Assembly (NCBI GenBank): GCA_963792415.1
Contig: CAWBVY010000006.1
Location: 288,001 to 352,000 of the forward strand
Length of the DNA stretch: 64,000 bases
Direction: 5' to 3'
DNA from: Candidatus Deferrimicrobiaceae bacterium
Lineage (GTDB): Bacteria; Desulfobacterota; Deferrimicrobia; Deferrimicrobiales; Deferrimicrobiaceae
Shown: positions 27,838 to 58,542 of the stretch, piece after piece
Layout of the letters: the number at the start of each line of letters is the position of its first letter
How positions within the stretch are numbered: position 1 is the stretch's first letter
Position numbers and translations under genes: made by a program
Notes under the pieces: model-generated
What the model was told of the DNA's origin: nothing
Databases searched by the model: none
What the model saw: the letters and a program-made list of their open reading frames with translations, nothing else

Positions 27838-28114
27838 CTCTTCCTCCGAATCTTCTTTCCGCCTTCGGAAATTTTCCTTCGTCGCCCGATGGACGAAGGG
27901 TGCGTCAGGCTTTTCATCGAGGGCTATCGGAATTCCCCACCTACGTGAATTTCAAAATTGTCATTGCGCTGATGATTTCGATATCCACACCTCCGGCAAA
28001 ACCCCGCAAAGGCCGGTTTTTAGGCAGTGCAGACTGCCCCGAACATCTGATCAAAGTGTTAATCACGAAGTATGCCAAGAAAGGAAAGTAACGATGAGGT
28101 GGAATCCAGATAAG

Positions 28115-28174
28115 TGACCGGATCCCCGATTTTACTCCAACCGGATGCGGGGATTATGGGATTCGACCTTCGGG
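28115..28174 (+). repeat. att-like module copy F (internally deleted)
   Basis: TGACCGGATCCCCGATTTTACTCCAACCGGATGCGGGGATT joined directly to GGATTCGACCTTCGGG; matches both ends of copies A and B. Confidence 0.75.
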
Positions 28175-28196
28175 GGATGCAGGCCGTGCGGATTCC

Positions 28197-30626: not shown

Positions 30627-30638
30627 GCGGGGGCCCCG

Positions 30639-31349: not shown

Positions 31350-31484
31350 GGCTTCCGCATCTCCGAAGGCGTCAGGATCGACTCCCTCCGTACGTTGTGC
31401 GCAATACCCACTATAATGTCATTGTATACGCAAATCGGAATGTGCCGTTGCGTCGTGTCACCATCCCTATCCCGCCACCTCATG

Positions 31485-31581
31485 GATCGCATACTCTTTT
31501 CAATGGGATCCCTCGCAGCAACCGACCTTCGGGTGGGTGAACCATGATTCGGGTGGACCGATAATCGAGGGGGGCAGGTCA
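31485..31581 (+). repeat. att-like module copy E plus outward IS3-like end
   Basis: 31485-31533 is homologous to copy D; TGGACCGATAATCGAGGGGGGCAGGTCA at 31554-31581. Confidence 0.7.
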
Positions 31582-31714
31582 ACATTCCAGCTGAAAACCC
31601 GGTGAAAACTTTTCGGGGGCCCGGGAATGGTTTTCTGCGGAGAACCGTTGTATAATCCAGCATTATTGCAGTCGAATCCACCGCCATACCGACAGGATAA
31701 ATGGAGGAAATCGT

Positions 31715-32041
31715 ATGCACAAACATGAATTCAATTTTGAAGACTTTATCGAGAACGTCAAGGATATGGACTATAACGACATCATGAATTATGGAAACAT
31801 GATAGTTACCGAAAGTGAAAGTTTTTTAAAATCACATCATGATGCCGGAATGGAAGTAAACATGGAAATGAAACAATATTCTGAAAAAATAAAGGCTTTT
31901 CTATTATTCATAAGTCAAGGCATTAAACCCAGATTCATAAGCGCGCACGACTTCAAACTGTATCGTATTGTCGTTGAGTTTCTGGTTGCCAAGGAACAGA
32001 TGAAACCGGAAGCGATCAACGTTTTTATCAGTTCAAAATAA
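31715..32041 (+). CDS. Hypothetical protein (AT-rich)
   Basis: GGAGG RBS, TATAAT upstream, 108 aa. Confidence 0.7.
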   Translation: MHKHEFNFEDFIENVKDMDYNDIMNYGNMIVTESESFLKSHHDAGMEVNMEMKQYSEKIKAFLLFISQGIKPRFISAHDFKLYRIVVEFLVAKEQMKPEAINVFISSK

Positions 32042-32072
32042 AAGATCTTCGCCCGCCAGCCATGCTCCCCCT

Positions 32073-32813
32073 TCAGGCAATTTCCGCCCTTGCGGCCGGA
32101 TTGAAGGGATTCGTTCGCACCGCCAGGGAAAAGAGGTAGGGGTAGTTCTCCTGGAGGTGTCTCATGTACGACAGCCATTCCGCCCCGAGCAGGACGTAAA
32201 CCCGCTTGATGTCTCCGATCAGGTGGTCATAGTCGGATTGCGGCAGAGAGGAAACGTCCCGCCGATTCCCCAGCTCCTCGGCAAGGTGGAACACCGCCCA
32301 CAGCAGCTCGGTGAACGCTTCGTGCTCCAGCAGGTTGGGATTTCCCAGCAGGCTCAACAGGAACTGCTTCTTCGCCATCAGAAAGGAGCACAGCTTTTCC
32401 CAGTCGATATCCGCGCGTGCAACGTTGTGGTCGAAATCCTGGAGGTCGCCCCGGGCCTGCTGGTATTCGGCCTCCCCCTATTCCGCACTTACCAGCAAGC
32501 GCTTCAGGGGCGCCTCCGCCTTCGGCTTCCTTTTCGAGAAGAGCCGGATCAGCTCGGTGCCGACCTCGCTGAAGAAGCTGCCGATCACCATGTTGAGTTT
32601 TTTCAGCATCGACTGTTTTTCACGGCGGCCCAGGAGTTCGTTGATGACCACCGTGACGAGGTACACGGAGACCGGCAGGAAAGCGAGCTGGACGAGCATG
32701 GTCTTGAAGATGTAATCGGCGTCCCGGAACACAAAGTAGTGGAAGAGGCTGAAAGCGACGGCGAACATCAGAAAGATCGCCGCCATCCGGCCTCGCCACG
32801 GAAGAAATTTCAT
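32073..32813 (-). pseudogene. Conserved membrane protein with in-frame TAG at 32478-32480
   Basis: ORFs 32478..32870 and 32073..32378 are in frame; LLEHEAFTELLWAVFHLAEEL motif. Confidence 0.8.
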
Positions 32814-33078
32814 TATCGCCCCCTCCTCGAAGGAGATTTTCTCCAACTTTAAAACCGATCCTCCGTTCACAAGACGTCCACAAACTCCATCCGGGGAACC
32901 GGCATTTTATCAGTTACGATGTGTTGGCGATATGAACCTCAAGGATGCGCGAAGAAAAAAGGGGGCAGAGGAAACGCGTTCCCCGGAAGTAGCGGTCGTC
33001 GCATGCAAAGCTTCGTGAAGCGCGTTCCACCTGCGGAGCATCTATTCTTCATCACCGAAAGAGAATGGGGGAAGGGAC

Positions 33079-34149
33079 ATGATCAAAACCGTCGGATATG
33101 CCGCTCAAGGTGCGACCACGCCGCTGGAAACCTTCCGTTTCGAGCGCAGGGAACCGGGGGAAAACGACGTCCGCATCGAGATCCTCCACTGCGGAGTCTG
33201 CCACTCCGACCTGCATACAGCGCGGAACGAGTGGAAGGGATCGACCTACCCCGTCGTACCGGGCCACGAGATCGTCGGGCGGGTGTCGCAGGTGGGCTCC
33301 GGGGTGAAGGGGTTCCGGCGGGGCGATCTTGCCGCTGTCGGCTGCATGGTCGACTCGTGCCGGAGCTGTCCCGACTGCATGGAAGGGTTGGAACAGTACT
33401 GCCGCAACGAGATCGTCTTCACCTACAACAGCAACGATCGGCACACCGGCGGAATGACCTACGGCGGCTACTCGGGCTGCATCGTCGTCGACGAGAGGTT
33501 CGTCCTGCGGGTGCCGGCGAACCTCGACCTCCCCGCGGTAGCCCCGCTTCTGTGCGCGGGCATCACGACGTACTCCCCGCTGCGCCACTGGAAGGTCGGG
33601 AAGGGCGACACGGTCGGCGTGGTCGGCCTCGGGGGGCTGGGGCACATGGCGGTCAAGCTGGCCAACGCTTTCGGCGCGACCGTGGTGATGTTCACCACCA
33701 CTCCGGGCAAGGCCGCCGACGCGAAGCGGCTGGGTGCCCATGAGGTAGTCATATCGAAGAACCCCGACGAGATGAGAAAGCAGGCGAACCGGTTCGACTT
33801 CCTCCTGAACACGGTGGCCGCGCCGCACGATCTCGACGCGTTCCTCAACCTGCTCCGGCGCGACGGCACGATGTGCATGGTCGGCGCCCCCGCACTGCCG
33901 CACCCGTCGCCCAACGTCTTCAACCTGATCTTCGGGCGTCGGAAGCTTTCCGGTTCGCTGATCGGTGGGATCCAGGAGACCCAGGAGATGCTCGATTTCT
34001 GCGGGGAGCATGAAATCGTGTCCGACATCGAGCAGATTCCGATCCAGAGGATCAATGAGGCTTACGAGCGGATGCTCCGGAGCGACGTGAAATACCGCTT
34101 CGTCATCGACATGGCGTCCTTGCAGAAGGAGAAGCAAGAAAGGCAATAA
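33079..34149 (+). CDS. Zn-dependent NAD(P) alcohol dehydrogenase (cinnamyl-ADH-like)
   Basis: CGVCHSD, GHEIVG, CxxCxxC, GLGGLG. Confidence 0.94.
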   Translation: MIKTVGYAAQGATTPLETFRFERREPGENDVRIEILHCGVCHSDLHTARNEWKGSTYPVVPGHEIVGRVSQVGSGVKGFRRGDLAAVGCMVDSCRSCPDCMEGLEQYCRNEIVFTYNSNDRHTGGMTYGGYSGCIVVDERFVLRVPANLDLPAVAPLLCAGITTYSPLRHWKVGKGDTVGVVGLGGLGHMAVKLANAFGATVVMFTTTPGKAADAKRLGAHEVVISKNPDEMRKQANRFDFLLNTVAAPHDLDAFLNLLRRDGTMCMVGAPALPHPSPNVFNLIFGRRKLSGSLIGGIQETQEMLDFCGEHEIVSDIEQIPIQRINEAYERMLRSDVKYRFVIDMASLQKEKQERQ

Positions 34150-34153
34150 GATA

Positions 34154-34188
34154 AGGGCGGACCGATCGGGGGGAGGCTGGTCCGCCCT
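34154..34188. terminator. Hairpin between convergent genes
   Basis: AGGGCGGACC...GGTCCGCCCT. Confidence 0.55.
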
Positions 34189-34212
34189 ATCCACTGAGAA
34201 CCAGGAGGAAGA

Positions 34213-34575
34213 TTACCATTCCCGGTAATTATAATTTCTCAACCTCCCGGTATTGCGGTCAAAGAGACAATTCAGTTCTTCACCCGTTTCCGTAGGTGTC
34301 GTCATCCCCATGCCCAAAAACCCCATTGAGACACCCCCGGAGACCGTCCCGAAATTCACTTTTCGCCATGTGTGCCATATGCCTTCCGGAGTCTCGATGG
34401 ATTGTTGCGGTGGCCCCATCGTCGGTATCAAATCGTCGAGAGTTGCTATGCCGATGTTCGAGGAGAGCCATTCATCAGATGCTTTGCGCTGAGCCGCTTT
34501 CCCTCCGCCGCACGAAAAAAACAGCAGGGGTATCAGGGTGCAGAGCATCAGGATAAGCTTCGGCCGAGGAGGCAT
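34213..34575 (-). CDS. Hypothetical lipoprotein
   Basis: LFFSC lipobox; MGPPQQS. Confidence 0.65.
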   Translation of the reverse strand: MPPRPKLILMLCTLIPLLFFSCGGGKAAQRKASDEWLSSNIGIATLDDLIPTMGPPQQSIETPEGIWHTWRKVNFGTVSGGVSMGFLGMGMTTPTETGEELNCLFDRNTGRLRNYNYREW

Positions 34576-34680
34576 AGGGAACGGCAACTTGCCCACAGAT
34601 GCCTTCTTTAACAAGGGGTTAGGAGCGGGTTCTCTCACTTTTCAACCCATATCGAAATGCCCGTATCGCACCTCGCCTCG

Positions 34681-34740
34681 GTCGTAATCCGTGAGTTCGA
34701 CATCGTAGGCATCCCCATTTTCAAATCGGAAACAAATGCA
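34681..34740 (-). pseudogene. 3' remnant of a HigB/RelE-type toxin
   Basis: CICFRFENGDAYDVELTDY resembles HigB C-termini. Confidence 0.55.
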
Positions 34741-34880
34741 CAAAGTGTAATCCGTCTCGTGACACATGTCAGCAGGAGCGTGCAATTGACGCGTAAGATG
34801 GAATCTCCGCGTATAATATATAATTGGATTACGAAACCTGCCACGCAGCACCATGGTTTGATTTTCATTCGGAGGGACAC

Positions 34881-35579
34881 ATGATCGACGCGGAAAACAG
34901 GGTGCGGCGGAGCGTAAAAATCACCGGGGCGGTGCTTGTGGGGGCCCTGCTGCTGTCGGCCGGATGTGCGACGAACCCCGACGGGACCACGGAGTACAAA
35001 CGCACGGCGACCGGGGCCCTGGGAGGCGCCGCGGTGGGCGCGGGCGTCGGGGCGCTGATCGCGGGCAGCGGGCACCGCGGAACGGGTGCTCTCATCGGCG
35101 GCGTCGTGGGAGCTGCCGGAGGGGGCGCAATCGGAAACTACATGGACAGGCAGGCGGCGGAGATGAAACGGAAGCTCCCCGAAGCCGCCGTCGCCCGCGA
35201 GGGAGACAAGCTGTACGTCGCTCTCCCCTCGGGCATACTGTTCGACGTCGACAAAACGGAGGTCAAGCCCGCGGCCAGGGATTCGATCGCGAAGGCGGCG
35301 GAGGTGCTGCTGAAATATCCGGACACCTACATCACGGTGGAGGGGCACACCGACTCCACCGGGACGGCGGAACACAATCAGAAGCTCAGCGAACGGCGAG
35401 CCGACGCGGTCCGGGACCAGCTCCTGAGGGACGGCGTCCCCGCGTCGAGAATGAGCATCAAGGGGTACGGGGAATCCAATCCCGTCGCCGACAACTCCAC
35501 TCCGGAAGGACGGCAGTCGAATCGGCGGGTTCAGCTCGAGATCCGGCCGAACGAGAAACTGAAGGCCCAGCAGGGCTGA
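34881..35579 (+). CDS. OmpA-family lipoprotein with glycine zipper
   Basis: LSAGC lipobox, Gly zipper, GHTDSTG, NQKLSERRA, NRRV. Confidence 0.93.
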   Translation: MIDAENRVRRSVKITGAVLVGALLLSAGCATNPDGTTEYKRTATGALGGAAVGAGVGALIAGSGHRGTGALIGGVVGAAGGGAIGNYMDRQAAEMKRKLPEAAVAREGDKLYVALPSGILFDVDKTEVKPAARDSIAKAAEVLLKYPDTYITVEGHTDSTGTAEHNQKLSERRADAVRDQLLRDGVPASRMSIKGYGESNPVADNSTPEGRQSNRRVQLEIRPNEKLKAQQG

Positions 35580-35774
35580 ACGGTAAAATCGATGGCAAAC
35601 CGTCAGCAAGAGGCCCAAATATGGTCAGAACATAAACGGGGAGACAATCGGCTGCGTCCTGTTCGTCGAAAACGGTGCTTCCCTTCATTTCTGGAACTCC
35701 ACGTCTGTTACGGCAACCTTGACCTTCTTCGCCCAATCTGATGGTGCTCCGACAATCGGCACGAATCATGGTTC

Positions 35775-35925
35775 AATGCCTGGTTCGCCTCATTCCACGC
35801 CTTGCTGACTTCATCGAGACCGTTCCTTGCGCTTTCCAGTTTCGCCTTGTCCAGATTCTTCGAAAGCTTCTCGCTCCTCTTGGGGACAGGGAGTCGATGC
35901 GGCTCTGGATGTCGGCGATCATCTT
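35775..35925 (-). pseudogene. Degenerate duplicate of the C-terminal part of the 35919..36560 lipoprotein
   Basis: KLSKNLDKAKLESARNGLDEVSKAWNEA versus KLPKNLDKAKLESAKSDLAEVSKSWDEA. Confidence 0.75.
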
Positions 35926-36560
35926 CCCCCGGCGGCAGGAGTCTCAACCGAATATTCCCGTCCTCGGAGGGTTCCTTCCGATGGGGGAGCCGACATCCCG
36001 AGGGAGGACATGATCTGGGCGGCCTTCTCCCTGGCACCATTCCCCTTCGCGAGGGCGTCCGCAAGGCTGCCTTCCTTGTAGGCCTTGCCCGCCTCGTCCC
36101 ACGACTTGCTGACTTCGGCCAAGTCGCTCTTGGCGCTTTCCAGTTTCGCCTTGTCCAGATTCTTCGGAAGCTTCTTGCTGTTGGACAGGGCATCGACGCG
36201 GCTCTGAATGGCGAAGATCGTCATCGGCATCCCGGCGTTCAGCTCCTCCCAATCCTTCGTCAGTTCGGCCTTCTTGGCCGCCGACGCGGAAACAAGATCC
36301 TTCGCTTGGGCGGTGACGGCGGTCGCGGCGGAAGTGGCTCCCGCGTAATCCCCCTTGGCGAAGGTGTCCTTCGCCGCTTTCAGGGCTTCTTCCACGGTCT
36401 TCACCTGGTCCGGGACGTACTTCATCGCCTCGGCCTTTGTGGAGTTCAGGGCCTCTTCCGCCGCCTTGAGCGCCTGCTCGGCGGGGGCCTTCTGGTTGGA
36501 GCACGCGGCGAGCGCGACGGCGAACAGGAAGCATGCGACGACCGAAAGAATTCTTTTCAT
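35919..36560 (-). CDS. Helical Ala/Lys-rich lipoprotein
   Basis: LAAC lipobox. Confidence 0.8.
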   Translation of the reverse strand: MKRILSVVACFLFAVALAACSNQKAPAEQALKAAEEALNSTKAEAMKYVPDQVKTVEEALKAAKDTFAKGDYAGATSAATAVTAQAKDLVSASAAKKAELTKDWEELNAGMPMTIFAIQSRVDALSNSKKLPKNLDKAKLESAKSDLAEVSKSWDEAGKAYKEGSLADALAKGNGAREKAAQIMSSLGMSAPPSEGTLRGREYSVETPAAGGR

Positions 36561-36771
36561 GATGGCATTCCCTCCTCCAGGGACGTTTACAGAGCGGGAA
36601 CGGAATGCGTCTATATGAAAAATGTACTACTTAATGTGGGGAAGAAGCAATATCCCAAGGGGCAAACGCCCCCCTGCTCTGCTTTCCCCTGAAACCCCTC
36701 CAACGTCGCAAGGGATTTACCCCTTCAAAGCGGCCTGCTTCCCAAAAACCGAAAACGGATCAATGGAGGAG

Positions 36772-36856
36772 TTCCCCTCGTCAACAGCGTCCCAGTGAAA
36801 CCCCCTGTCCCTCCCCCCCCGAAAAAAAGTTTGTTCACAATGGGTTAGCAGTCCGA
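36772..36856 (-). repeat. R2 promoter-like module copy
   Basis: CGTCAACAGCG...AAACCCCC...CCGAAAAAA...TTGTT...GGGTTAGCAGTCCG. Confidence 0.55.
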
Positions 36857-37035
36857 GCGGCTTCTCCCTCGCTTGTCCACTACTACGCCACCTGGCGCGG
36901 GAAGATTGCCGAAAAGGGCGAGTTCCCTTTCCGGCCGCGACAAGCGAAAAAGGAATTTTTTATCTGGATTGCTTTTCCCGGGGGATTACCCGGATAATGA
37001 GCTAATGTCTGCGACTGGAGCCTGCGTTGCCATCG

Positions 37036-37751
37036 ATGGTCATCGTGTGCAGGAGCTGCGGAGCCCGCTTCCGCATGACCCACGCGCTTTTTCAGGATGC
37101 GAAAGGGGCCCGCATCCGTTGCCGCAAGTGCGGCGGGCACATCGAGGTGCGGCACCCCGAGGCATCACCGGTCCCCCCTGCTCTTGAGGTGCCCGGCACA
37201 CTCGCGTACGAGCCTGCCCCAACCGCTTTTCCCGAAATACCGGAAGTCGTCCCCAAGGAAGGTCCTGTGACGGCCCCCGCGTTGCCCACCGAAAATCCGC
37301 TTGCTCACGCACCGTCGAGCGACGCCCTGGTGCCACCCGAAAAACCGGGGCCGGAAAAGGAAGCTCCCATGCCGGAGGAGGACGTCTTTTCCCCCTCCCC
37401 CCCACCTTCGAGCCGGGCGATACCGAACCGGAAGAAGAATCGAAGCACGCACCGCACGCCCCGGGGATGGAAACCGTTCCGCCTATGGACGCGCCGGATG
37501 CCGAATCCGCCATAAACGGCACCAGGGATGGTGTGAATGGGAAAATCTACGCTGTCTATCGTCTCGGTTACTGGAACAACAAGCTCGAACTCGTGGGGAA
37601 GGTGGTGGAACGTCGGAAGGAAGAGCGGAAGAACAATGCCGCGGATATGTTGCAATGGGCCCAAAAAATTTACGCAGCTTCGTCGATTGATTCAAGCATA
37701 TTCATCGTCAAGGAAGGCTCCCCTGGGGGGGCGATCTTCGGGGGCGCATAG
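37036..37751 (+). pseudogene. MJ0042-type zinc-ribbon protein joined by a frameshift to a small conserved domain
   Basis: MVIVCRSCGARF...IRCRKCG, Pro-rich linker, then KIYAVYRLGY...VERRKEERKNNAADML in a second frame. Confidence 0.5.
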
Positions 37752-38220
37752 GCCATCCTCGACCCTGTGAGGAGTATTGCTATACGCTAATCGATCTCCG
37801 ATTGTCATCTGTCAGGGACGCGAGGGAGAGCGTTCAACCCCTACTGTCCGACTGCTCCGCCCCACTATTGGGGGGAGATGATCGCAGTACCCTGATCCCT
37901 TATCTGGTGCGCGAAAGAGGACGGAGCCGGAGGGCCCCGTCCTCACTCCCATATGGGTGCGGATTTACCGCTATTTCCCTCATGCTCGATCCATCGGAAC
38001 CGGGGAGGGCACGCCCCGTCGTCTTTTCCTCTAAGGAAGCCCCTTGAGGATCTGGTCCATCTCCTGAGCCGAAAAGGCCTTGAGCGTCTCCGTCTTGGCG
38101 TTTCCCAACATCCCCAAGCCCAACGCCACGCGGGGAGTTCTCACATCAGAAAGTGAATGCCGAACGGCCAGCACCGACCGACTCCGCCGGTACTGGCCCC
38201 CCGAGCTTTCGTTTGCCGGG

Positions 38221-38424
38221 TTACTTCAGGATAAATCCGCCTGTCCCACGGACCTCCCGAGCAACCTCCGCCATTTCCTGCTTCGAGACGCGCCTCCCGC
38301 TTTGCACGATGTGGCTCAATTTGCACGCCTTATCGACGACACCGCTCCAGGTATGCTGCGTCGCTGTGTCCCGATCCGTGGCCTTTCCGTTCGCCGATCC
38401 CGTCCCGGGTTTTCCTTTTTCCAT
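38221..38424 (-). CDS. Small hypothetical protein
   Basis: AAGGAGG RBS, 67 aa. Confidence 0.55.
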   Translation of the reverse strand: MEKGKPGTGSANGKATDRDTATQHTWSGVVDKACKLSHIVQSGRRVSKQEMAEVAREVRGTGGFILK

Positions 38425-38856
38425 GGCGCGCCTCCTTTCCGCTGTTTGTTGTTTGCTCTCAACAACAGCATTACGAATGCCAATAGGAGCAGTAATTGGA
38501 GTTGGCCCCTAAGTAGCTATCTTTTAACAGTAAATACGGACAGCATGTTCGCGGGACGAATCACTCCTTTCCTGCGTGGTGGTGATATATGGTCTACATG
38601 TCAACATGTCGACATTTTACCCATTAGTGGTTACCGGAGACGCGCGGAACCCCGGGGCGAGCTCGTGGACCGAGACGATCTCTCTCACCGCCACAGCAAC
38701 TTACGGGCGCCTGCTCGGGACTTGCAGCCTCCAACGTCCGCGAACGCTCCCGCCCCGAGGGGGATCGTGGCGCGTCAGGGAACCTCCTGAAGATTTCACC
38801 CGCATCTTCCGATATACCGTACTGCCTCGTTTTTCGCCTGGGACAAGGAGGAGATT

Positions 38857-39105
38857 ATGGATAAACGAGAGGCGGAATACTGGCGCGGGTACGGTGAGGG
38901 GATCAATTACCGCATTCGGCAAAGGATGGGAGAATCCATCCGCGCGCATTATCGCCCGTCCGAAAAAGCCGCAGGTGAAAACGGCGATTCCTTTGTCGAT
39001 GCCTATGCCGAGGGGTACCGCGACGGTTGCAAAGAAGAAACCTTTTGTTTGGTGCTCCCCGAAAGGGATCCATCCGGCCGCCAACGATGGAACGGCGCAG
39101 CGTGA
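38857..39105 (+). CDS. Hypothetical protein (YxRGY / DxYxxGY family)
   Basis: AGGAGGAG RBS; EYWRGYGEG...GDSFVDAYAEGYRDG. Confidence 0.7.
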   Translation: MDKREAEYWRGYGEGINYRIRQRMGESIRAHYRPSEKAAGENGDSFVDAYAEGYRDGCKEETFCLVLPERDPSGRQRWNGAA

Positions 39106-39266
39106 CGGCGACCATTCGCCGATGGCTTACCCCTGGCGATTCATGAACAGATCGTGAATACCCGGAGGACACCCCTCACGCGAGCGAGGTTCCCCCGGGA
39201 CGCGACGAAAGGGGAAAAGCCGGGGTTGGGTGGGGGGTATGCGTACCGGATAGGTTTTACGGTCTT

Positions 39267-40277
39267 CTACGGCCGTATCTCAACAATCGTCCCATTCGGC
39301 GCCAACTTGCTAATTTCCTCTATTTCTTCGTCTGTTACGGCAATACACCCTTTCGTCCAGTCGACCTCCGTGTGAGCATCCCCTACCCAAGAGAAACCAT
39401 TCTTGATACCGTGGATCATGATGTCTCCGCCCGGAGAAACACCGAGTTCTTTTGCGCGATTTTTGTCCCTCTCGTTTGGATAGGAAATATGCAGAGAGAG
39501 GTGAAACCGGCTGTCCTTGTTTCTTCCATCGATGACATAGGTCCCCTCGGGGGTCTTGTTATCCCCTTGCCGTTCCTTTGGGCCGATTGGGTTCCCCCCC
39601 AGTGCGATATTGTAGGATTTCAGCACTTCACCCTGTGAGATCAACATCAATCGGCGTGCATTTTTTTCTATCAGGATCCTGTCTACCGATCCCTTCTGAA
39701 TCGCATAGGCGACAAACTTTTTTTCGAGCGCTTCAATCTTTTTTCCCAGCGTGACGATCTCATTCTCCTTGCCTTGGGCCTCGTGCCGGAGCGTTTCGAT
39801 CTGCATCTGCTGCGCGGCTATCGTCTTCTCCTTGCCTTGGACCTCGTGCTGGAGAGTTTCGATCTGCATCTGCTGCGCAGCTATCGTCTTATCCTTGAGA
39901 GCGACATTCCTGAAATTAAATATCATCATCTCGCTGTTCTGCCGATACTCGCTCCCCGGGTAATCCTTGACGAGTTTCTGAAAACATTCCAGGGATTTCT
40001 GATAATCTTTTTGCTCGTTCTTCGAATGGGCATAAACAATACCCATCTCGAACAGAGCCCTGTCTGCCGTCGCGGGATATTTATCGATTATTTCCGAATA
40101 CTTGTCCAGAGAGGCCGCGTAGTTTCCCTGATGATACAGATCATTCGCCTCTGCGAAGGTCGTCTTGGCGTGCCGCCCGTCGTTATAGTGACTGCAACCG
40201 GATAGGAGCATCGGTGCCATTATGAGGCAGATACAGAACGTGAATGGTCCGATGTGAAAGATTCTCGGCTTCCTCAT
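39267..40277 (-). CDS. Lipoprotein with TPR, coiled coil and YkuD L,D-transpeptidase domains
   Basis: LSGC lipobox; TPEGTY, IMIHG, WTKGCIA; 63-bp tandem duplication. Confidence 0.9.
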   Translation of the reverse strand: MRKPRIFHIGPFTFCICLIMAPMLLSGCSHYNDGRHAKTTFAEANDLYHQGNYAASLDKYSEIIDKYPATADRALFEMGIVYAHSKNEQKDYQKSLECFQKLVKDYPGSEYRQNSEMMIFNFRNVALKDKTIAAQQMQIETLQHEVQGKEKTIAAQQMQIETLRHEAQGKENEIVTLGKKIEALEKKFVAYAIQKGSVDRILIEKNARRLMLISQGEVLKSYNIALGGNPIGPKERQGDNKTPEGTYVIDGRNKDSRFHLSLHISYPNERDKNRAKELGVSPGGDIMIHGIKNGFSWVGDAHTEVDWTKGCIAVTDEEIEEISKLAPNGTIVEIRP

Positions 40278-40332
40278 TTTCCTAATCCCTTGGCAGAATC
40301 ATCGGGACAATCTCATATGATATGTAAAGAAA

Positions 40333-40356
40333 TGGCAGGGGCGTAAGCCCCTGCCA
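40333..40356. terminator. Stem-loop between the lpp-like gene and the LDT gene
   Basis: TGGCAGGGGC-GTAA-GCCCCTGCCA. Confidence 0.6.
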
Positions 40357-40408
40357 CCTGTTTGTCCTGAGCTTTGAAGCGAACGTTGACGACAGCCGTA
40401 CAAGTGAC

Positions 40409-40774
40409 TTACTTCTTCATCGACTTCTCGAAGGCGGCTTCCGCCTTTTTCGCTTTTTCATCGGCGATCCTTTCCTTTTCCGCTGCCACCCTTTCCCTTT
40501 CCTCTGCCTCCTTAATAGCATTTTCGGCGCGGACCGATGTTTCATCTGCCTTTACCTTGGCCGCATCTGCATTTACCTTGGCCGCATCCGCATTAACCTT
40601 GGCCGCATCCGCTGCAGTCTTGGCGGCTTGCGCATCCTTCAATGCCTGGTCCGCTTTCGCATCGATCATTTTCTGCTCCGCCTGCACTTTCTCGAGGTCA
40701 CCGGTTGTTGCGCAACTGAACATCAGAGTCGGGAGAACAAGCATCATCGTGATCAGGAACAGGTTTTTCTTCAT
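40409..40774 (-). CDS. Lpp/OprI-like alanine-zipper lipoprotein
   Basis: MFSC lipobox, ADAAKVN heptad repeats, C-terminal KK. Confidence 0.85.
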   Translation of the reverse strand: MKKNLFLITMMLVLPTLMFSCATTGDLEKVQAEQKMIDAKADQALKDAQAAKTAADAAKVNADAAKVNADAAKVKADETSVRAENAIKEAEERERVAAEKERIADEKAKKAEAAFEKSMKK

Positions 40775-40795
40775 CTCTCTTCACCTCCTTTCCGT

Positions 40796-42139
40796 TCAGT
40801 CTACTTTAACAGGTTCCATTACGATACCGTCGATCTCCAGATCTATTTTCAGGCGTTTCGCTGCCTTTTTGGCTTCACTGCGATCATGGAACGGGCCGGC
40901 GATAACACGGTAGCTGTCGCTCCTTTGGAACACCCGGGCCGGGATGGGTGGCCCCTGGTGATTGATGATGGCGGCAATCCTCTGAGCTTCAATCCTGTCA
41001 CGCCCATCGGCAGCCAAAACATACCATGCTTCCAGTTTCAGTGCCGGTATTTCCGGTTTGCCGTACAACGTCTCCGGGTGCTCGACTTCTACAGGTTTCG
41101 CGACCTCTTTTTCACTTCCCTGAATCAACTCGAAGATGGGAACCGGAATCCCCCGGGCCTCGGCCTGTGCTTCCTTGACCTTTTTCCAGTCGAGCGTGCG
41201 CCGGGCTTTCTTTTCAACCGTTCTCAATTTTTTATAGAGTTTCTCCGACTCATGAGCGTCCGACCCTTCCATGGGCGCATGCGCTTCCAGGTAAAGTACG
41301 CCATTGCGTTGCCCTATGAGATATGGCTGGTTGACAATGAGTACCGGTGTTTTCACCGGAGTGTCATCGAAGAGCGTCTTCACGTTTTCCGGATAGAGCC
41401 TCAGGCAGCCATTGGTTGCCGTAAGGCCGATGCTGGCCGGTTTATTGGTGCCATGGATCAAATAGCCCGATTTGCTCAAGTAGAGCGCGTATTCCCCCAG
41501 GGGATTTTCAGGCCCCGGCGGGACGGCTTTGGGGAGGATATCCCCTTTCTTGCGATGGTCCTCGGCAATCGAAGCAGGAACATGCCAGGTAGGCCGGGCC
41601 GCCTTGCGCGCCACATGCATCTTGCCCGTGGGGGTAGGCCGCTCGTCGGTGCCGACACCGACCGGGTAGGTCGTCACCGACAGGGACGTGCCATCCTCTT
41701 TATACTGAAAGAGCCTCATGGTGGCCAGGTTGATCACAATCCCTTTTCTGGGAGTGTCCGGCAGGAGAAAACTCAGGGGCAACAGGATACGCTCTCCGGC
41801 CTCAGGAACCCATACGTCTACCCCGGGATTCGCCGCACTGATTGCGTTGATCCCCAGACTGAAGTGTCGAGCAATATCCGGGAGCGTATCTCCCTTTTCA
41901 AGCCTGATAACCGCCAACCGGCCGATGACGTCTTCTCCTCGTGCAACCGGAAACCTGTTTCGCTCGATCTCCTTTTCACGGTGGCCTGGAAAAGAGTCTG
42001 CTGTCTCCTGGACACTTTTCATTGCGGCACATCCAGAGAGAGAGAAGATGAATATGCAGAGAGCCGCCAAACGAAACCGGTTGCAGGAGAGTGATCGATC
42101 ACGGGTTCGTAACATGGGTTCAGCAAGCACCTTTCTCAT
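40796..42139 (-). CDS. ErfK/YbiS-type L,D-transpeptidase with LysM and SPOR domains
   Basis: GDTLPDIARHF, PGPENPLG, LIHGT, TNGCLRL. Confidence 0.9.
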   Translation of the reverse strand: MRKVLAEPMLRTRDRSLSCNRFRLAALCIFIFSLSGCAAMKSVQETADSFPGHREKEIERNRFPVARGEDVIGRLAVIRLEKGDTLPDIARHFSLGINAISAANPGVDVWVPEAGERILLPLSFLLPDTPRKGIVINLATMRLFQYKEDGTSLSVTTYPVGVGTDERPTPTGKMHVARKAARPTWHVPASIAEDHRKKGDILPKAVPPGPENPLGEYALYLSKSGYLIHGTNKPASIGLTATNGCLRLYPENVKTLFDDTPVKTPVLIVNQPYLIGQRNGVLYLEAHAPMEGSDAHESEKLYKKLRTVEKKARRTLDWKKVKEAQAEARGIPVPIFELIQGSEKEVAKPVEVEHPETLYGKPEIPALKLEAWYVLAADGRDRIEAQRIAAIINHQGPPIPARVFQRSDSYRVIAGPFHDRSEAKKAAKRLKIDLEIDGIVMEPVKVD

Positions 42140-42243
42140 CGGCGACCCGGCGGTCTCAGCGAGATCCTGCAGGCGTTCCACCCCGCCTGACCTGACCCCT
42201 GTGATCGGTCTATCTATATCGTAGTGCAAAAATCCTCCGGAGC

Positions 42244-42392
42244 TGACCTGATCCCCGATATTTGACCAACTGGAGACGGGGATTTTCCCCTGCCGACCAC
42301 AAGACGGTCACAAGCTCCAGTCGCTGACTGGAAATTCTTCCAGACAAGGGAACTTATAGGATTCGACCTTCGGGGTGGTTTCCCGACCAGGT
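42244..42392 (+). repeat. att-like module copy A (most complete)
   Basis: IS3-like TGACCTGATCCCCG end, GACCACAAG/GGTCACAAG, 50 bp, GACCTTCGGG-GTGGTTT-CCCGACCAGGT. Confidence 0.82.
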
Positions 42393-55183: not shown

Positions 55184-55351
55184 GATCTTCACCCCCTTTT
55201 CACATTTTGATGCGTCGAGAACACGGCATCGTTTCCCCCGCCGGGGATTTGTCCGCTGCAAGCAGTGGGATCAGATTGCGAATGCCCGCTGCCATCCCCG
55301 CATCTAATTACCAACGAGATGTGCGGTCAGTCAGAGAGGGAGGGCAATCCC

Positions 55352-55684
55352 ATGGAACTTTCGGATAAGCGGTGCGTTCCATGCCGGGGAGGAGTTCCGG
55401 TGTTGGGAGCGGAGGAGGCGGAAAGGCTGGTTGCCCAGGTCCCCGGTTGGTCTCTCGAGGAGGATGCAAAAGGTATCCGCCGGGAATTCCGGTTCCGGAA
55501 TTTTGCAGAGGCAATGATGTTCTCCAGGCAGGTCGGAGAACTCGCGGAGGTCGAGGGGCACCACCCGGATCTGTCCATCGGTTGGGGTTACTGCACGGTA
55601 CGGTTCCGGACCCACGCGATCGGGGGTTTGCACGAAAACGATTTCATCATGGCGGCCAAAGTGAACCGCCTTGTCCCCTCTTAG
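55352..55684 (+). CDS. phhB: Pterin-4-alpha-carbinolamine dehydratase
   Basis: CVPCRGG, EGHHPDL, THAIGGLHENDFIMAAK. Confidence 0.9.
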   Translation: MELSDKRCVPCRGGVPVLGAEEAERLVAQVPGWSLEEDAKGIRREFRFRNFAEAMMFSRQVGELAEVEGHHPDLSIGWGYCTVRFRTHAIGGLHENDFIMAAKVNRLVPS

Positions 55685-55776
55685 GCCTCCCCTTCCTGGT
55701 CCCAATCCCCAACAGGGCATTGAATTCCAGACAAGAAAAAGGGGGTCACGATTTCTCGTAACCCCCTGATTTTATA

Positions 55777-55813
55777 TGGTAGCTTGGCCAGGATTTGAAC
55801 CTGGGACCTTCGG
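55777..55813 (-). pseudogene. Degenerate 3' half of initiator tRNA-Met (att scar)
   Basis: minus strand CCGAAGGTC-CCAGG-TTCAAAT-CCTGG-CCAAGCT-A-CCA followed by terminator-like hairpin 55741-55766; no 5' half. Confidence 0.75.
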
Positions 55814-56056
55814 CTAGAGTTGTTCCTTTCTCAGAAATTTTCCGTTTGCCGCATCGAATTTATAGAATGAATCCCCTTCCTGAACCGTCCATTCGGCGTT
55901 GGTTTTCTTGCCGAGGGACATCTTCGTTCCGTACTTGTTGGGCTTTAGTCCGTTTTTTTTCGCCTCGGTCATGATCTTGTTGCTGTCCGCGAATTCACCG
56001 ACGGGATGAAGATCAATTAAAGGATTCGCCTGGATCCACTCAGTGAGGTTCTCTGT
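55814..56056 (-). pseudogene. 5'-truncated gene remnant (about 80 codons)
   Basis: open frame TENLTEWIQANPL...FDAANGKFLRKEQL* with no start; its stop abuts the tRNA remnant. Confidence 0.5.
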
Positions 56057-56057
56057 T

Positions 56058-56528
56058 TCACCTTTTCTTTTCCTTCTTGGGTGGCGTGCAAACCTCTTCT
56101 AACAGTGCATCATTTGCGGTTTCTGGTTCAATATTCTCCCATTTCGCGGGAGAAATGAATTTTTTATACTCATCTTTCATGGATATATAATTAAATTCGA
56201 TAGTTTTCATTAAATGAGCGCTGCAGTCTATTTCTAATAATGCCGTTGCTTCCTTATAAATACGTGTATCTTTTTTATCGTTAACTGGTTCTCCGAATTT
56301 TATCCACACCTTTACATTGTTGTTTCTTTTTATTATACTTTTAGTATCGTAAAAATATATCGTATCATCAATAAAATCTATTGCATAATTATTCCATCTG
56401 CTACGATCAGGAGAAAAGCCATATACAACATTATCTTCTATCGTATTGTCGGTACTTTTCGACATTGCCATGGCGTGCAGGAAGATTAAAAATAGGAAAA
56501 AAAATATCAAAAGCCCTGCGCGTCTCAA
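56058..56528 (-). CDS. Surface-adhesin-E-like secreted protein (AT-rich)
   Basis: YFYDTKSI, KVWIK, EIDC, WENIEPET...VC; TTG start with CAGGAG RBS. Confidence 0.7.
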   Translation of the reverse strand: MRRAGLLIFFFLFLIFLHAMAMSKSTDNTIEDNVVYGFSPDRSRWNNYAIDFIDDTIYFYDTKSIIKRNNNVKVWIKFGEPVNDKKDTRIYKEATALLEIDCSAHLMKTIEFNYISMKDEYKKFISPAKWENIEPETANDALLEEVCTPPKKEKKR

Positions 56529-56703
56529 AATCGTCTCCTGTCCCTCAGCCCATTTCAACAGCAAGACTTCGAACTGCCACCAGAACATCTCAAAAGATGA
56601 AAACCCCACTTCCAAGTTCGATACACTTACAAAAACATTTCGTATTCTCATCGGCAATACCACGGGACTTCTTCAACAGTTCCGGCTCGCCCCGGATGTA
56701 AGG

Positions 56704-56842
56704 CGACCTGATCCCCGATTTTAGGCCAACTGGACGCGGGGATTTTCGCTTGGTCACAAGACGGTCACAAACTTCAATCGAGGATTGGAAATTCTTTCAG
56801 CCAAGAGAACTTATTGGAATCGACCTTCGGGGTGCGCCCCGG
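56704..56842 (+). repeat. att-like module copy B
   Basis: aligns end to end with copy A; GGTCACAAG/GGTCACAAA at 56752/56763; GACCTTCGGG 56822-56831. Confidence 0.82.
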
Positions 56843-56859
56843 GGATGATCCGTTACCCC

Positions 56860-57606
56860 CTACCCCATTCGCCGCTGGACCGCCTCCCAGGATTTTGTAA
56901 TGAGAAAACTCTCGTCCATGTTGTTGATCATGGCGGCGAACTTGTTCATCGGCATGGCGAAGCTCAGCGTCGAGCCTGGGACAAAGGGCCTGGCGGAAAC
57001 GTCGAACATCCCGAGAACGGCCCTCGGGTGGGACGCACCGATCTCGAGGAAAGGGAATTTCACGATGGAGCCGCAGCCAGCGCAGAAAGGGCAAACCACG
57101 GCATTCAGGTCGGCCTCTTCGAAGCCGGCCAGCGTGTAGAGTCCCGAAAGAACATCCGGAGGGGCGAAGAAGACGGCCACCTGAGGTGCATCGGCTTCCC
57201 GCAGTCTGTCCCATCTCTTGAAAACGATGTGGCGGGCCGGCGCCGTGAAGGAAGGCGAACGCGCTTCGAACTCCTTCACCAGCTCGGGAGATTTTTTGTA
57301 CCGTATGCCCTCCAGCATCCCCGGGATGCCGCACGAGAGAAAGTGTTCGAAATCCGGAGGGACGCCCTGCGTGAAGCCCAGGTAGCGCTTCCCACCGCTG
57401 CAGCCGATCGCAGCAACGTCGAACAGCAGGCTTTCCCCCTTGCGGATCTTCGCAAGGTCCGCGATAAAGCACCGGTGGCCTTTCGCCGGCTCCGCCCGAA
57501 CGGCCGCCCCTTCATCGTCGGTATACCAGCAGGTGATGGGCAGCTCGGCACCGCCGAAATATCTCTTCCACCGATCCAGGAAGTCTTCTTTGAGTCTCAT
57601 GTCCAT
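56860..57606 (-). CDS. DUF169 protein
   Basis: IGCSGGKRYLGF, PFCAGCGSI, GMFDVSARP. Confidence 0.88.
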   Translation of the reverse strand: MDMRLKEDFLDRWKRYFGGAELPITCWYTDDEGAAVRAEPAKGHRCFIADLAKIRKGESLLFDVAAIGCSGGKRYLGFTQGVPPDFEHFLSCGIPGMLEGIRYKKSPELVKEFEARSPSFTAPARHIVFKRWDRLREADAPQVAVFFAPPDVLSGLYTLAGFEEADLNAVVCPFCAGCGSIVKFPFLEIGASHPRAVLGMFDVSARPFVPGSTLSFAMPMNKFAAMINNMDESFLITKSWEAVQRRMG

Positions 57607-57724
57607 ATTCCCTCCTCCTCCATCAATGCATCGAAGCGGAGATGAACGGAAAATGCATTACCACCCATAGGGTACAATGGAATCACTCAATGTCGGCGTG
57701 GGAACTCACGAGGGGGAAATACCC

Positions 57725-58300
57725 ATGAAGAAGTCCTTTGGCGCAAAGACGCTTGCATTCCCCACCCCGGTTTGGGTGGTGGGGACTTATGACCGGAATG
57801 GAAAACCAAACGTGATGACTGCGGCATGGGGCGGAATCTGCTGTTCCAGCCCTCCATGTTTGGCCGTCTCGCTCCGGAAGGCCACCTACACATACGGGAA
57901 CATCGTGGAGCGGAAGGCATTCACGATCAGCGTCCCCTCCGAGAGCCATGCCCGGGAGGCGGATTACATCGGCATGGTTTCAGGAAAGAACGTAGACAAG
58001 TTCGTTGCCGCCAAGCTCACCCCCGTCCGGGGCTCCCTTGTGGACGCGCCGTATATCGGGGAGTTTCCCCTCGTCATCGAATGTCGACTTCTCCATACCA
58101 TCGAGATCGGCCTGCACACCCAGTTCGTCGGGGAAATCCTGGATGTCAAAGCGGAAGATTCCGTCTGCGACGAGAAGGGATTTGTCGATATCGAAAAAGT
58201 GAAGCCGATCCTCTTCGCTCCGGAGATCAATACCTACCACGGGGTCGGCAGGCTTCTTGGTCACGCCTTCTCTATCGGAAAGGATATTCGAGCGAGGTAG
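57725..58300 (+). CDS. Flavin reductase-like protein (flavoredoxin)
   Basis: [28 protein letters not shown]. Confidence 0.9.
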
Positions 58301-58346
58301 GCTTCAACGAAGGGACCGCTCGGTCAATCCCTGAGGATAGGATGCT

Positions 58347-58478
58347 TCACCTGCCCGTCATGGGTGGCGGCAATTCCATCATCTGGATCTCCCACTCGTC
58401 CCGGGAACGGCCATAACGGAGGATGTAGCGGGCGCCGTCGGAACCGTCGAGCTTTACGCACTCGTGGTCCTCCCCCCG
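58347..58478 (-). pseudogene. 3' remnant of the 18559..18798 paralog
   Basis: RGEDHECVKLDGSDGARYILRYGRSRDEWEIQMME, near-identical DNA. Confidence 0.8.
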
Positions 58479-58542
58479 CCTTTGGCTCCCTTCGGCTCCA
58501 TCGCCGCCGCACGCCAAGCGGCTTGAGACGGCGGAGGCAGAT

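What the first reader, a model, noticed from the sequence alone, without database searches (positions are those of the whole stretch)
55698..55816. Degenerate 3' half of tRNA-fMet linking the core motif to a tRNA att site
Seen: on the + strand the order is arm-like GGTCCCAAT (55698), terminator-like hairpin (55741-55766), reverse complement of a T-arm, acceptor stem and CCA (55777-55804), then GACCTTCGG (55805-55813), where tRNA similarity stops just short of the anticodon loop. The stop codon of a 5'-truncated gene abuts it. Established: this layout is typical of the tRNA-restoring arm of integrative elements. Inference: it identifies the ancestral target of the recombinase and shows crossover at the anticodon loop into a non-tRNA site.
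Basis: partly seen in the sequence, partly recalled or inferred. Interest (0 to 1): 0.72.

Follow-up and report, generated by a model that had tools for sequence, protein, structure and literature searches.

The report
Displaced tRNA-fMet end marking island junction
This short stretch is a slightly decayed copy of the last 37 bases of the cell's initiator tRNA gene plus its terminator, left behind when foreign DNA was inserted into that gene, which sits intact 10.6 kb away; this is an ordinary genomic-island scar, though it lies in an unusually long row of such scars with no integrase gene among them.

Summary
On the minus strand, 55777-55813 matches positions 41-77 of the genome's only initiator-type tRNA-Met gene at 35 of 37 bases. 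No other tRNA matches beyond a 15-base T-arm.

The repeat is really 84-90 bp, because the terminator hairpin is copied too. This is the classic pairing of a tRNA gene with a displaced 3' fragment. It is not an insertion into a non-tRNA site.

The shared block at many junctions is CCGAAGGTC (3' strand of the anticodon stem plus variable loop), just 3' of the anticodon loop.

Three things are unusual:
- The 10.6 kb interval holds no integrase. It has an IS3 transposase and three internal core copies.
- The core recurs 12 times in 66.5 kb, against 0.55 expected.
- The only cognate tyrosine recombinase lies on the 5' side of the tRNA. It lacks about 22 N-terminal residues found in element-borne paralogues, yet is under purifying selection.

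A sister species has the same junction without 4.45 kb that G000 carries exactly between cores.

I read this as tandem accretion of integrase-less islands at tRNA-fMet. An integron-like role for the resident recombinase remains possible but is weakened.

The parts
55805..55813 (-). Core CCGAAGGTC, tRNA-fMet positions 40-48; the junction point where tRNA identity begins.
   Evidence: The base to its left (G) already differs from the tRNA (C).
55777..55804 (-). Copy of the tRNA-fMet T-arm, acceptor 3' strand, discriminator and CCA. 26 of 28 bases match; CC is changed to AA in the acceptor strand.
55740..55767 (-). Intrinsic-terminator hairpin copied together with the tRNA end (12-pair stem, T run).
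   Evidence: It lies within the 84-90 bp repeat found.
55724..55813 (-). Whole distal repeat copy. The partner copy is window-equivalent 66311-66400, inside and just after the intact tRNA gene, outside the window.
   Evidence: 84 nt, 94.0%; 90 nt, 92.2%
55698..55736 (.). Stretch of 37-38 nt holding GGTCCCAAT and CCCCAACA. It is an indel polymorphism, not a conserved arm.
   Evidence: Absent in G011 and skipped by a contig of run X1. Motif counts.
55265..55684 (+). Pterin-4a-carbinolamine dehydratase gene, convergent on the fragment's terminator. The same linkage is found in species G011.
   Evidence: Pfam PF01329, E 1.2e-29. Window 54808-55813 is 91% identical to G011 L016 3659-2684.
55814..55972 (-). 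Orphan open frame whose stop abuts the core (open for 88 codons back to 56080).
55814..56821 (-). Segment S3, carrying an adhesin-E-like gene (56058-56663). It is bounded by cores and has no recombinase.
   Evidence: The same gene in G021 is bounded by degenerate cores.
56822..56830 (-). Internal core copy. It is followed by a non-tRNA 'type A' arm with CTTGTGACC twice (56752, 56763).
56831..60232 (-). Segment S2: NERD-domain gene, flavin reductase and small ORFs. No recombinase. A diverged second copy lies at 17939-20237.
60233..60272 (-). Two core copies 31 bp apart (60233-60241 and 60264-60272).
60273..60362 (-). Arm to the left of core 60264. In G011 this arm is joined directly to core, tRNA fragment and dehydratase gene.
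   Evidence: 90.1% over 101 nt
60273..64000 (-). Segment S1: Sel1-repeat gene and unknown genes. It runs on beyond the window to the tRNA, through an IS3-family transposase at window-equivalent 65096-66127.
18900..42373 (-). Further exact cores in the same orientation at 18900, 21709, 25597, 28165, 31524 and 42365. Degenerate cores at 20223 and about 2497-2509.

Best explanation
The stretch is the distal copy of an att direct repeat made by tyrosine-recombinase integration into the initiator tRNA-Met gene.

DNA entered at the core CCGAAGGTC, in the 3' strand of the anticodon stem plus the variable loop. The incoming DNA supplied a new T-arm, acceptor strand, CCA and terminator, so the tRNA stayed functional. 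The previous 3' end with its terminator was pushed 10.6 kb downstream, where it now decays (two substitutions in the acceptor strand).

The 10.6 kb between the two copies is a composite of three recombinase-less segments separated by internal cores. It is part of a longer row of core-bounded, low-GC segments built by repeated integration at the tRNA and at att junctions that carry the tRNA end, followed by loss of the integrase genes. This is tandem accretion of cis-mobilizable-type elements.

Shown:
- the repeat, its orientation and its extent;
- the absence of an integrase inside the interval;
- an indel bounded exactly by cores between two species;
- element-borne integrase paralogues sitting in the classical position in relatives.

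Inferred:
- strand exchange occurs inside the 9-mer;
- element-borne integrases (now lost from this genome) did the work.

Unresolved: whether the displaced end was the chromosome's own or came from an earlier element.
For: 1. Best tRNA match is tRNA-fMet, 35 of 37 bases, the top hit among 56 tRNAs.

2. The repeat covers 84 nt at 94%, or 90 nt at 92%. It includes the terminator, runs in the same orientation with the fragment downstream of the tRNA, and is the only other copy in the genome. This is the signature the Islander paper uses to map islands (PMC4383910, abstract and search-strategy passages).

3. Recombinases in the interval: of the 13 ORFs I tested between fragment and tRNA, none has a Phage_integrase domain and one is an IS3 transposase. 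Across all 70 ORFs tested by Pfam, only one has PF00589, and it lies beyond the tRNA. tblastn with that integrase against the 72 kb region finds only itself; the next hit has E 0.23.

4. Core enrichment: [AC]CCCGAAGGTC occurs 12 times in 66.5 kb against 23 times in the other 2.77 Mb, so 0.55 are expected. There are 11 exact CCCGAAGGTC in the window, 9 of them on the minus strand. With up to 1 mismatch there are 23, against 10.0 +/- 3.4 in shuffles, and 0 of 100 shuffles reach 23.

5. In G011 the arm left of core 60264 (90% identical) is joined through one core to the tRNA fragment and dehydratase gene (91% identical). G000 therefore carries 4,450 extra bp exactly between cores.

6. Relatives hold integrase paralogues (58-71% identity) convergent on the tRNA-fMet 3' end or on a tRNA-fMet fragment. 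In 18 of 25 more distant homologue loci, a tRNA gene of another identity lies just downstream on the opposite strand.

7. G021 holds at least 4 further tRNA-fMet 3' fragments in its array, next to different neighbours. G011 holds 4 fragments and G016 holds 2.

8. GC content is 0.51-0.62 across window 2-68 kb, against 0.63-0.70 on both sides.

9. A contig of run X1 bridges the junction between core/fragment and segment S3 (L001 633-1013, 3 differences). That run may be the sample the genome was assembled from, so it is not independent support.
Against: 1. There is no integrase inside the interval, so it fails Islander's integrase filter.

2. The internal junctions nearer the tRNA (56822, 60233, 60264) carry no tRNA 3' half, although under simple successive integration at the tRNA they should be younger than the well-kept fragment at 55805. 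This forces either insertion at the fragment-bearing att junction or arrival as a ready-made composite.

3. The dehydratase gene is next to a tRNA fragment only in G000 and G011 among the 27 genus genomes that gave matches. More cores lie beyond it. So 'displaced native end' is not shown.

4. No contig in 4 runs joins across two cores, so there is no direct sign of excision. The runs are held as contigs only, so this is weak.

5. All genomes here are metagenome assemblies, and repeats of this kind invite misassembly.

6. I defined cores by an exact 9-mer, so the 'minimal shared block' is partly circular. What the data add is that identity to the tRNA drops to 0-3 nt on the left and 0-2 nt on the right at most junctions.
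Confidence: 0.8

Rival explanations
1. Integron-like platform. The tyrosine recombinase fixed on the 5' side of the tRNA-fMet gene acts in trans on bare cores. It captures, excises and shuffles recombinase-less multi-gene cassettes, and the fragment is one cassette junction of that system.
For: - It is the only integrase of this family in the genome.
- A resident-type copy (81-92% identity) is present in 15 of 24 other genomes of the genus, full-length and without stops in 10.
- It always lies upstream of and divergent from tRNA-fMet wherever the flank is assembled: 7 loci, and 8 of 13 resident-type loci.
- dN/dS against 10 orthologues is 0.16-0.30, with no gaps over 328-331 codons.
- It lacks about 22 N-terminal residues that the element-borne paralogues and distant homologues have. 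By recalled analogy with lambda-type integrases, that region would be the arm-binding part.
- Cassettes are shared between species in different orders, with breaks at cores. Some pieces are 94-99% identical where core genes are 88-92%.
Against: - G004 and G006 (both 97% complete) lack the integrase block. There the tRNA lies 0.2-0.9 kb from the conserved genes that flank the integrase in G000. Yet both hold displaced tRNA-fMet fragments.
- G016 has an intact resident integrase, but only one other core in the 37 kb downstream.
- In G021, which has the largest array seen, the resident gene is in two pieces with two stops. This could be an assembly error.
- It is not an IntI: TIGR02249 scores 38 bits against a cut-off of 265.
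- The junctions do not fold like attC sites. z-scores run from -1.3 to +1.8 for the 9 junctions, and -1.7 for the tRNA itself.
- Genes in the segments face both ways.
Confidence: 0.12
2. An element that once targeted tRNA-fMet crossed over into a non-tRNA site, carrying its tRNA-restoring arm with it.
For: Within the window no tRNA gene is present, and a protein-coding gene lies next to the fragment.
Against: - The intact tRNA-fMet is 10.6 kb away, in the right orientation and configuration.
- The fragment's left neighbour is an element arm. Its right neighbour is the tRNA-type terminator, followed by the same gene as in G011.
Confidence: 0.04
3. Not site-specific recombination. Instead, a segmental duplication, homologous exchange or assembly artefact copied the tRNA end.
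For: All the genomes are metagenome bins. An 84-90 bp repeat can mislead assemblers. The contigs from the sequencing runs break at the core.
Against: - The repeat starts exactly at the same 9-mer that bounds many other segments, both here and in four other species.
- The same junction is found in an independently assembled species.
- A contig of run X1 bridges the junction.
Confidence: 0.04

Closest known systems
Genomic islands integrated in tRNA genes by tyrosine integrases, mapped as tRNA gene plus displaced fragment (Islander; PMC4383910, passages read). This includes the 'anticodon-centred' class of crossover sites.
   Same: An intact tRNA gene plus a 3' fragment downstream in the same orientation. 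The fragment runs to the CCA end. Identity starts beside the anticodon loop. The interval is 10.6 kb and has lower GC.
   Different: There is no integrase gene in the interval. The identity block starts 2 nt after the loop rather than in it. The repeat also includes the terminator. The only cognate integrase lies on the 5' side of the tRNA.
Tandem accretion and cis-mobilizable elements (CIMEs) of streptococcal ICE/IME families (review PMC5704250, passage read).
   Same: The elements keep att sites but have lost their integration genes. [quoted passage not shown] This is what the G000/G011 difference looks like.
   Different: I saw no conjugation or relaxase genes among the 70 ORFs tested. There are many more units (at least 10 cores). 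The target is a tRNA-fMet gene in a Candidatus Deferrimicrobium-type genome. Some arms have a conserved non-tRNA filler where the tRNA end would be.
Chromosomal integrons (IntI, attI and attC cassette arrays).
   Same: A recombinase gene is fixed next to the primary site. A long array of recombinase-less units follows, with sites mostly in one orientation. Units are shared and reordered between species.
   Different: The recombinase is a phage-type integrase, not IntI. The sites are a 9-13 bp core with arms, not folded attC. The units hold several genes in both directions. The recombinase is missing from some species that still have fragments.

Membership tests
Bacterial initiator tRNA (identity of the target gene) | CAT anticodon, mismatch at positions 1:72, and three consecutive G-C pairs at the bottom of the anticodon stem (criteria recalled). 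| tested here: met
   The sequence printed shows C1 opposite U72 and GGG/CCC closing the anticodon stem. The other two CAT tRNAs lack both features.
tRNA-gene island (Islander definition, PMC4383910) | A full tRNA gene and a cognate end fragment on the same replicon. | tested here: met
   35 of 37 bases, reaching the CCA end; both lie on contig C6.
tRNA-gene island (Islander definition, PMC4383910) | The 3' fragment lies downstream of the tRNA gene, in the same orientation, 2-200 kb away. | tested here: met
   Both copies are on the minus strand, and the fragment is 10,587 bp downstream.
tRNA-gene island (Islander definition, PMC4383910) | A tyrosine integrase gene inside or overlapping the interval. 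| tested here: not met
   None of the 13 ORFs tested in the interval has PF00589. tblastn with the cognate integrase finds nothing there.
Cis-mobilizable element / tandem accretion (PMC5704250) | att sites retained on both sides, integration and transfer genes lost. | tested here: met
   Cores lie on both sides of S1, S2 and S3. No integrase or relaxase domain appears in the ORFs tested.
Cis-mobilizable element / tandem accretion (PMC5704250) | Derived from an ICE or IME, and mobilizable in cis by a functional neighbour. | not testable with these tools
   No functional element is present in this genome. Integrase-bearing relatives exist in G011, G024 and G002.
Integron | An IntI-type integrase. 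| tested here: not met
   TIGR02249 scores 38.0 bits against a cut-off of 265. NF011946 scores 18.4 bits against a cut-off of 435.
Integron | attC-type sites that fold as imperfect hairpins at each cassette boundary. | tested here: not met
   Single-strand DNA folds of 9 junctions give z-scores from -1.3 to +1.8.
Lambda/P4-type integrase with an arm-binding N-terminal domain | An N-terminal arm-binding segment before the SAM-like core-binding domain. | tested here: inconclusive
   The resident protein lacks about 22 residues present in the paralogues. However, no Pfam arm-binding model hits either form at E <= 1. The function of that segment is recalled by analogy.

The most novel reading that the evidence does not exclude
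In this genus, a phage-type integrase has lost its N-terminal segment, become fixed beside the initiator tRNA gene, and is kept by purifying selection. It would then serve as a resident, core-only recombinase that captures and reshuffles recombinase-less multi-gene cassettes at a 9-13 bp site copied from the tRNA's anticodon stem and variable loop. That would be an integron analogue built from a tRNA gene and a lambda-type integrase. The fragment at 55777-55813 would be one of its cassette junctions.
Probability: 0.12. Interest if true: 0.8.

Novelty: new member of a known kind. Interest (0 to 1): 0.4.

Why it matters
The fragment itself is a textbook island scar. Its value is that it anchors the repeated 'core motif' of this window to a concrete target: positions 40-48 of the initiator tRNA. 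It also shows that nearly the whole window is a graveyard, or array, of segments inserted there.

The locus offers three things:
- A natural series of att junctions, in several species, from which the recombination site of an uncharacterised integrase family can be read.
- A clear case of integrase-less segments inserted exactly at an att junction.
- A conserved, N-terminally shortened integrase on the 'wrong' side of the tRNA, whose role is open.

If that protein acts on bare cores, it would be a second, independent route to integron-like gene capture.

Tried and rejected
- Rfam scan of 54000-58000 at E <= 10: 6 weak matches, none a tRNA. The best is CsrB at 20.2 bits against a gathering score of 71. 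Discarded as chance.
- PF00589 search of the window's own genome: it masks 72,000 bases, which probably include the window. I therefore did not use it as evidence of absence inside the window. I relied on Pfam scans of ORFs and a local tblastn.
- Far-flank synteny: window 1-3400 maps to scattered places in 5 relatives. This gave no simple 'empty site'.
- Laying contigs of 4 runs on L001 1-14000: no contig joins two cores. One X1 contig joins L001 699 to 11324. I read this as a strain variant that lacks 37 nt and has an undecayed fragment, not as an empty site, because the contig ends 4 nt before the core. Parts without cover are not evidence.
- Homologue search for the abutting ORF: it found only itself, and only lengths of 48-154 aa were searched.
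- PADLOC on 10 cargo proteins: 0 of 10 hit.
- Single-strand folds of the junctions: no consistent hairpin.
- Alignment of 'type A' arms with tRNA-restoring arms: inconclusive on whether the filler is a decayed tRNA end. One search shows only that, at the place orthologous to window 2428-2509, G002 has a decayed tRNA end plus terminator in front of the same arm repeats.
- GGTCCCAAT as an arm site: rejected. An 11-mer, ATCCCCAACAG, is shared in inverted orientation by the flanks of the two terminator copies. It is unexplained and was found post hoc.
- Sequence search of solved structures with the integrase: only weak matches to tyrosine recombinases (Int, XerA, XerD). Not informative.
- Literature (listings only, plus the passages read): these five searches turned up no paper describing islands or cassette arrays at tRNA-fMet in Deferrimicrobium or MBNT15. 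The one paper holding 'tRNA-fMet', 'integrase' and 'integration site' (PMC12429752) concerns tRNA genes carried by prophages. Five searches are too few to claim absence from print. Supplementary files and the Islander database tables, which may list initiator-tRNA islands, were not seen.

Full report
**What is there.** The window is contig C6 288001-352000 of an 11-contig, 2.84 Mb genome. Read on the minus strand from 55813 downward, the sequence runs as follows:
- CCGAAGGTC;
- a T-arm (CCAGG TTCAAAT CCTGG);
- CCAAGCT, then A and CCA;
- an A/T-rich spacer;
- a 12-pair hairpin with a T run (55767-55740).

The hairpin scores as a terminator and folds at -26.6 kcal/mol, z = -5.5. ARAGORN finds no tRNA in the window, and Rfam finds none around the site. 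That is expected for a half tRNA.

**Which tRNA.** ARAGORN finds 56 tRNA genes and one tmRNA in the genome.
- A short-word BLASTN of the fragment against those 56 gives one strong hit. It is the tRNA-Met(CAT) at C6 354364-354440 on the minus strand, positions 41-77, 35 of 37 bases, E 8.6e-13.
- The runner-up is a 15-base T-arm match to tRNA-Val.
- The matched tRNA is the only one of three CAT tRNAs with a C1/U72 mismatch and three G-C pairs at the foot of the anticodon stem. By recalled criteria that makes it the initiator.
- Both differences lie in the acceptor 3' strand (CC changed to AA), which would unpair G4 and G5.

The intact gene lies at window-equivalent 66364-66440, 2.4 kb beyond the window end. 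It has the same orientation as the fragment, and the fragment is 10,587 bp downstream of it.
- A BLAST of the tRNA with its flanks against the whole genome shows that the second copy is 84 nt long at 94% identity. Self-comparison gives 90 nt at 92%.
- The copy covers tRNA positions 41-77 plus the terminator hairpin.
- There is no third copy in this genome.

A tRNA gene with a displaced 3' fragment downstream in the same orientation is the signature of tyrosine-integrase integration into a tRNA gene. The incoming DNA restores the gene, and the displaced fragment marks the far end of the island (PMC4383910, abstract and method passages). So the fragment does not show insertion into a non-tRNA site. 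It is also the displaced copy, not the restoring one.

**Where the exchange happens.** The 9-mer CCGAAGGTC is tRNA positions 40-48, the 3' strand of the anticodon stem plus the variable loop.
- At the fragment, the base to the left of the 9-mer already differs from the tRNA.
- At most other junctions, identity to the tRNA extends 0-3 nt to the left and 0-2 nt to the right.
- A few junctions in relatives keep CTCATAAC to the left.

If one recombinase family made them all, the exchange lies inside the 9-mer, two bases 3' of the anticodon loop. This is an inference, and it is partly circular because I located junctions by the exact 9-mer. Degenerate versions exist: CCGAAGGAC at 20223, CCGAGCGTC at about 2500, and CCGAAGCTC and CCGCAGGTC in G021.

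**What lies between the two copies.** I tested 13 ORFs in the interval.
- They include an adhesin-E-like protein, a flavin reductase, a NERD-domain protein, a Sel1-repeat protein, an arylmalonate-decarboxylase-like protein, several proteins of unknown family, and an IS3-family transposase (225.6 bits).
- None has a Phage_integrase domain.
- tblastn with the cognate integrase finds nothing there or anywhere else in the 72 kb region.
- Three internal cores (56822, 60233, 60264) split the interval into segments that I call S3, S2 and S1.

By Islander's own rules the interval passes the fragment, configuration, orientation and length filters, and fails the integrase filter.

**A row of such junctions.**
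- [AC]CCCGAAGGTC occurs 12 times in the 66.5 kb up to the tRNA, and 23 times in the remaining 2.77 Mb, so 0.55 are expected.
- In the window there are 11 exact CCCGAAGGTC, 9 of them on the minus strand. With one mismatch there are 23, against 10.0 +/- 3.4 in shuffles.
- GC content is 0.51-0.62 from about 2 to 68 kb, and 0.63-0.70 outside.
- Several junctions are followed by a shared 'type A' arm of about 130 nt: core, about 50 nt of non-tRNA sequence, then CTTGTGACC-GTC-TTGTGACC. TTGTGACC occurs 8 times in the region out of 22 in the genome, always on the minus strand.
- The same paired repeat follows the tRNA end and terminator in relatives, where an integrase gene comes next.
- At the place orthologous to window 2428-2509, G002 has a core, a decayed tRNA-fMet end and a terminator in front of the same repeats.

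So the arms come in a tRNA-restoring form and a non-restoring form.

**Comparative evidence for insertion at cores.** In species G011, the arm to the left of core 60264 (90% over 101 nt) is joined through a single core to an undecayed tRNA fragment, the same type of terminator and the dehydratase gene (91% over 1007 nt).
- G000 therefore has 4,450 bp (the 22-nt spacer between the twin cores, then S2 and S3) exactly between cores that G011 lacks. Which lineage gained or lost it is open.
- The S3 gene recurs in G021 at 94% identity, between two degenerate cores and with different neighbours.
- The NERD segment recurs in G000 and twice in G024, next to a core each time.
- G021 has at least four further tRNA-fMet 3' fragments in its array. 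G011 has four fragments and G016 has two.

**The integrase.** One tyrosine recombinase of 340 aa, with the catalytic residues in place, lies at window-equivalent 67753-68775. It is on the 5' side of the tRNA and is separated from it by an RHH/PIN pair and an ORF6N gene.
- Distribution: resident-type copies (81-92% identity) occur in 15 of 24 other genomes of the genus, and 10 of those are full-length without stops. Wherever the flank is assembled, tRNA-fMet lies upstream and divergent.
- Selection: against 10 orthologues, dN/dS is 0.16-0.30 with no gaps.
- Paralogues: element-borne paralogues (58-71% identity) sit in the classical place, convergent on the tRNA end, in G011, G024, G002 and other records. 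In 18 of 25 more distant homologue loci, a tRNA-Leu, Gly, Ser, Ala or Arg gene lies just downstream.
- N-terminus: compared with the paralogues, the resident protein lacks about 22 N-terminal residues. By analogy this would be part of an arm-binding domain, but no Pfam model supports that for either form.
- Family: it is neither IntI nor XerC/D by NCBIfam cut-offs.

**Why I do not adopt the integron-like reading.**
- G004 and G006 (each 97% complete) have the tRNA only 0.2-0.9 kb from the conserved genes that flank the integrase in G000, so the integrase block is absent. Yet both hold displaced tRNA-fMet fragments.
- G016 has an intact resident gene but almost no array in the 37 kb downstream.
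- In G021, with the largest array, the resident gene appears broken.
- The junctions do not fold like attC sites, and genes in the segments face both ways.

These points lower that reading but do not exclude it. I give it 0.12.

**Open points.**
- It is not settled whether the displaced end is the chromosome's own. In favour: the linkage to the dehydratase gene is shared with G011, and the terminator type is the common one. Against: the linkage is seen in no other of the 27 genus genomes with matches, and more cores lie beyond.
- The junctions nearer the tRNA lack a tRNA end although they should be younger. This points to insertion at the fragment-bearing junction, or to arrival as a composite.
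- The source of recombinase activity in this genome is unknown.

**Verdict.** The mechanism is ordinary tRNA-gene integration, with the partner copy outside the window. The surroundings are an unusually long, integrase-less accretion array with a conserved, shortened integrase on the 5' side of the target. Related records carry titles naming Candidatus Deferrimicrobium sp. or 'Deltaproteobacteria bacterium' metagenome bins.

Noticed in passing
L001 11535-12230 (window-equivalent 66535-67230, beyond the window): An RHH antitoxin-like ORF and a PIN-domain (VapC-like) gene sit directly upstream of the initiator tRNA gene, and the PIN gene is conserved there in G011. From memory, some VapC toxins cleave initiator tRNA. 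The adjacency may be coincidence.
   Followed up: no
window 2428-2509, 42245-42373, 56705-56830, 28116-28173: A shared non-tRNA 'type A' arm follows the core and ends in CTTGTGACC-GTC-TTGTGACC. At the place orthologous to 2428-2509, G002 has a decayed tRNA-fMet end plus terminator before the same repeats. The array therefore seems to reach almost to the window start.
   Followed up: partly
window 17939-20237 and 56849-60246: A NERD-domain segment is present twice at 78-92% identity in blocks. The copies differ by an inserted core-plus-arm at 18900 and by the flavin reductase gene.
   Followed up: partly
window 55706-55716 (+) and window-equivalent about 66284-66303 (-): The 11-mer ATCCCCAACAG is shared, in inverted orientation, by the flanks of the two terminator copies. 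CCCCAACA occurs twice, 12 nt apart, next to the intact tRNA. Possibly arm-type sites of another integrase subfamily; this was found post hoc.
   Followed up: partly
window 60361-60434 and window-equivalent 64872-64932: A 74-nt near-perfect palindrome lies beside the arm of core 60264. A related 61-nt arm lies near the left end of the IS3-family element. Possibly a MITE-like derivative of the IS ends.
   Followed up: no
G000 contig C6 about 60950 (outside the window): CTCATAATCCGAAGGTC, an fMet-like anticodon loop plus core, lies about 190 nt downstream of a tRNA-Arg(CCT) gene.
   Followed up: no
G000 contigs C1 188 kb, C3 0.3 kb, C9 3.3 kb, C6 568 kb: Other tyrosine-integrase genes or remnants lie next to tRNA-Thr(CGT), tRNA-Arg(TCT) and tRNA-Ala(GGC) genes. 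tRNA-Thr(CGT) is present on three contigs. These are further island sites.
   Followed up: no
window 43079-44126 and 60852-61432: Internal tandem repeats of 261 bp in a 638-aa DUF5018/Fib_succ surface protein gene, and of 84 bp in the Sel1-repeat gene.
   Followed up: no
G004 C203 and G006 C13 (loci L080, L081): In two species, the block of integrase, ORF6N and PIN is absent between tRNA-fMet and the conserved upstream genes. In G004 part of the neighbouring 560-aa gene is absent as well. The block is therefore an indel within the genus.
   Followed up: partly
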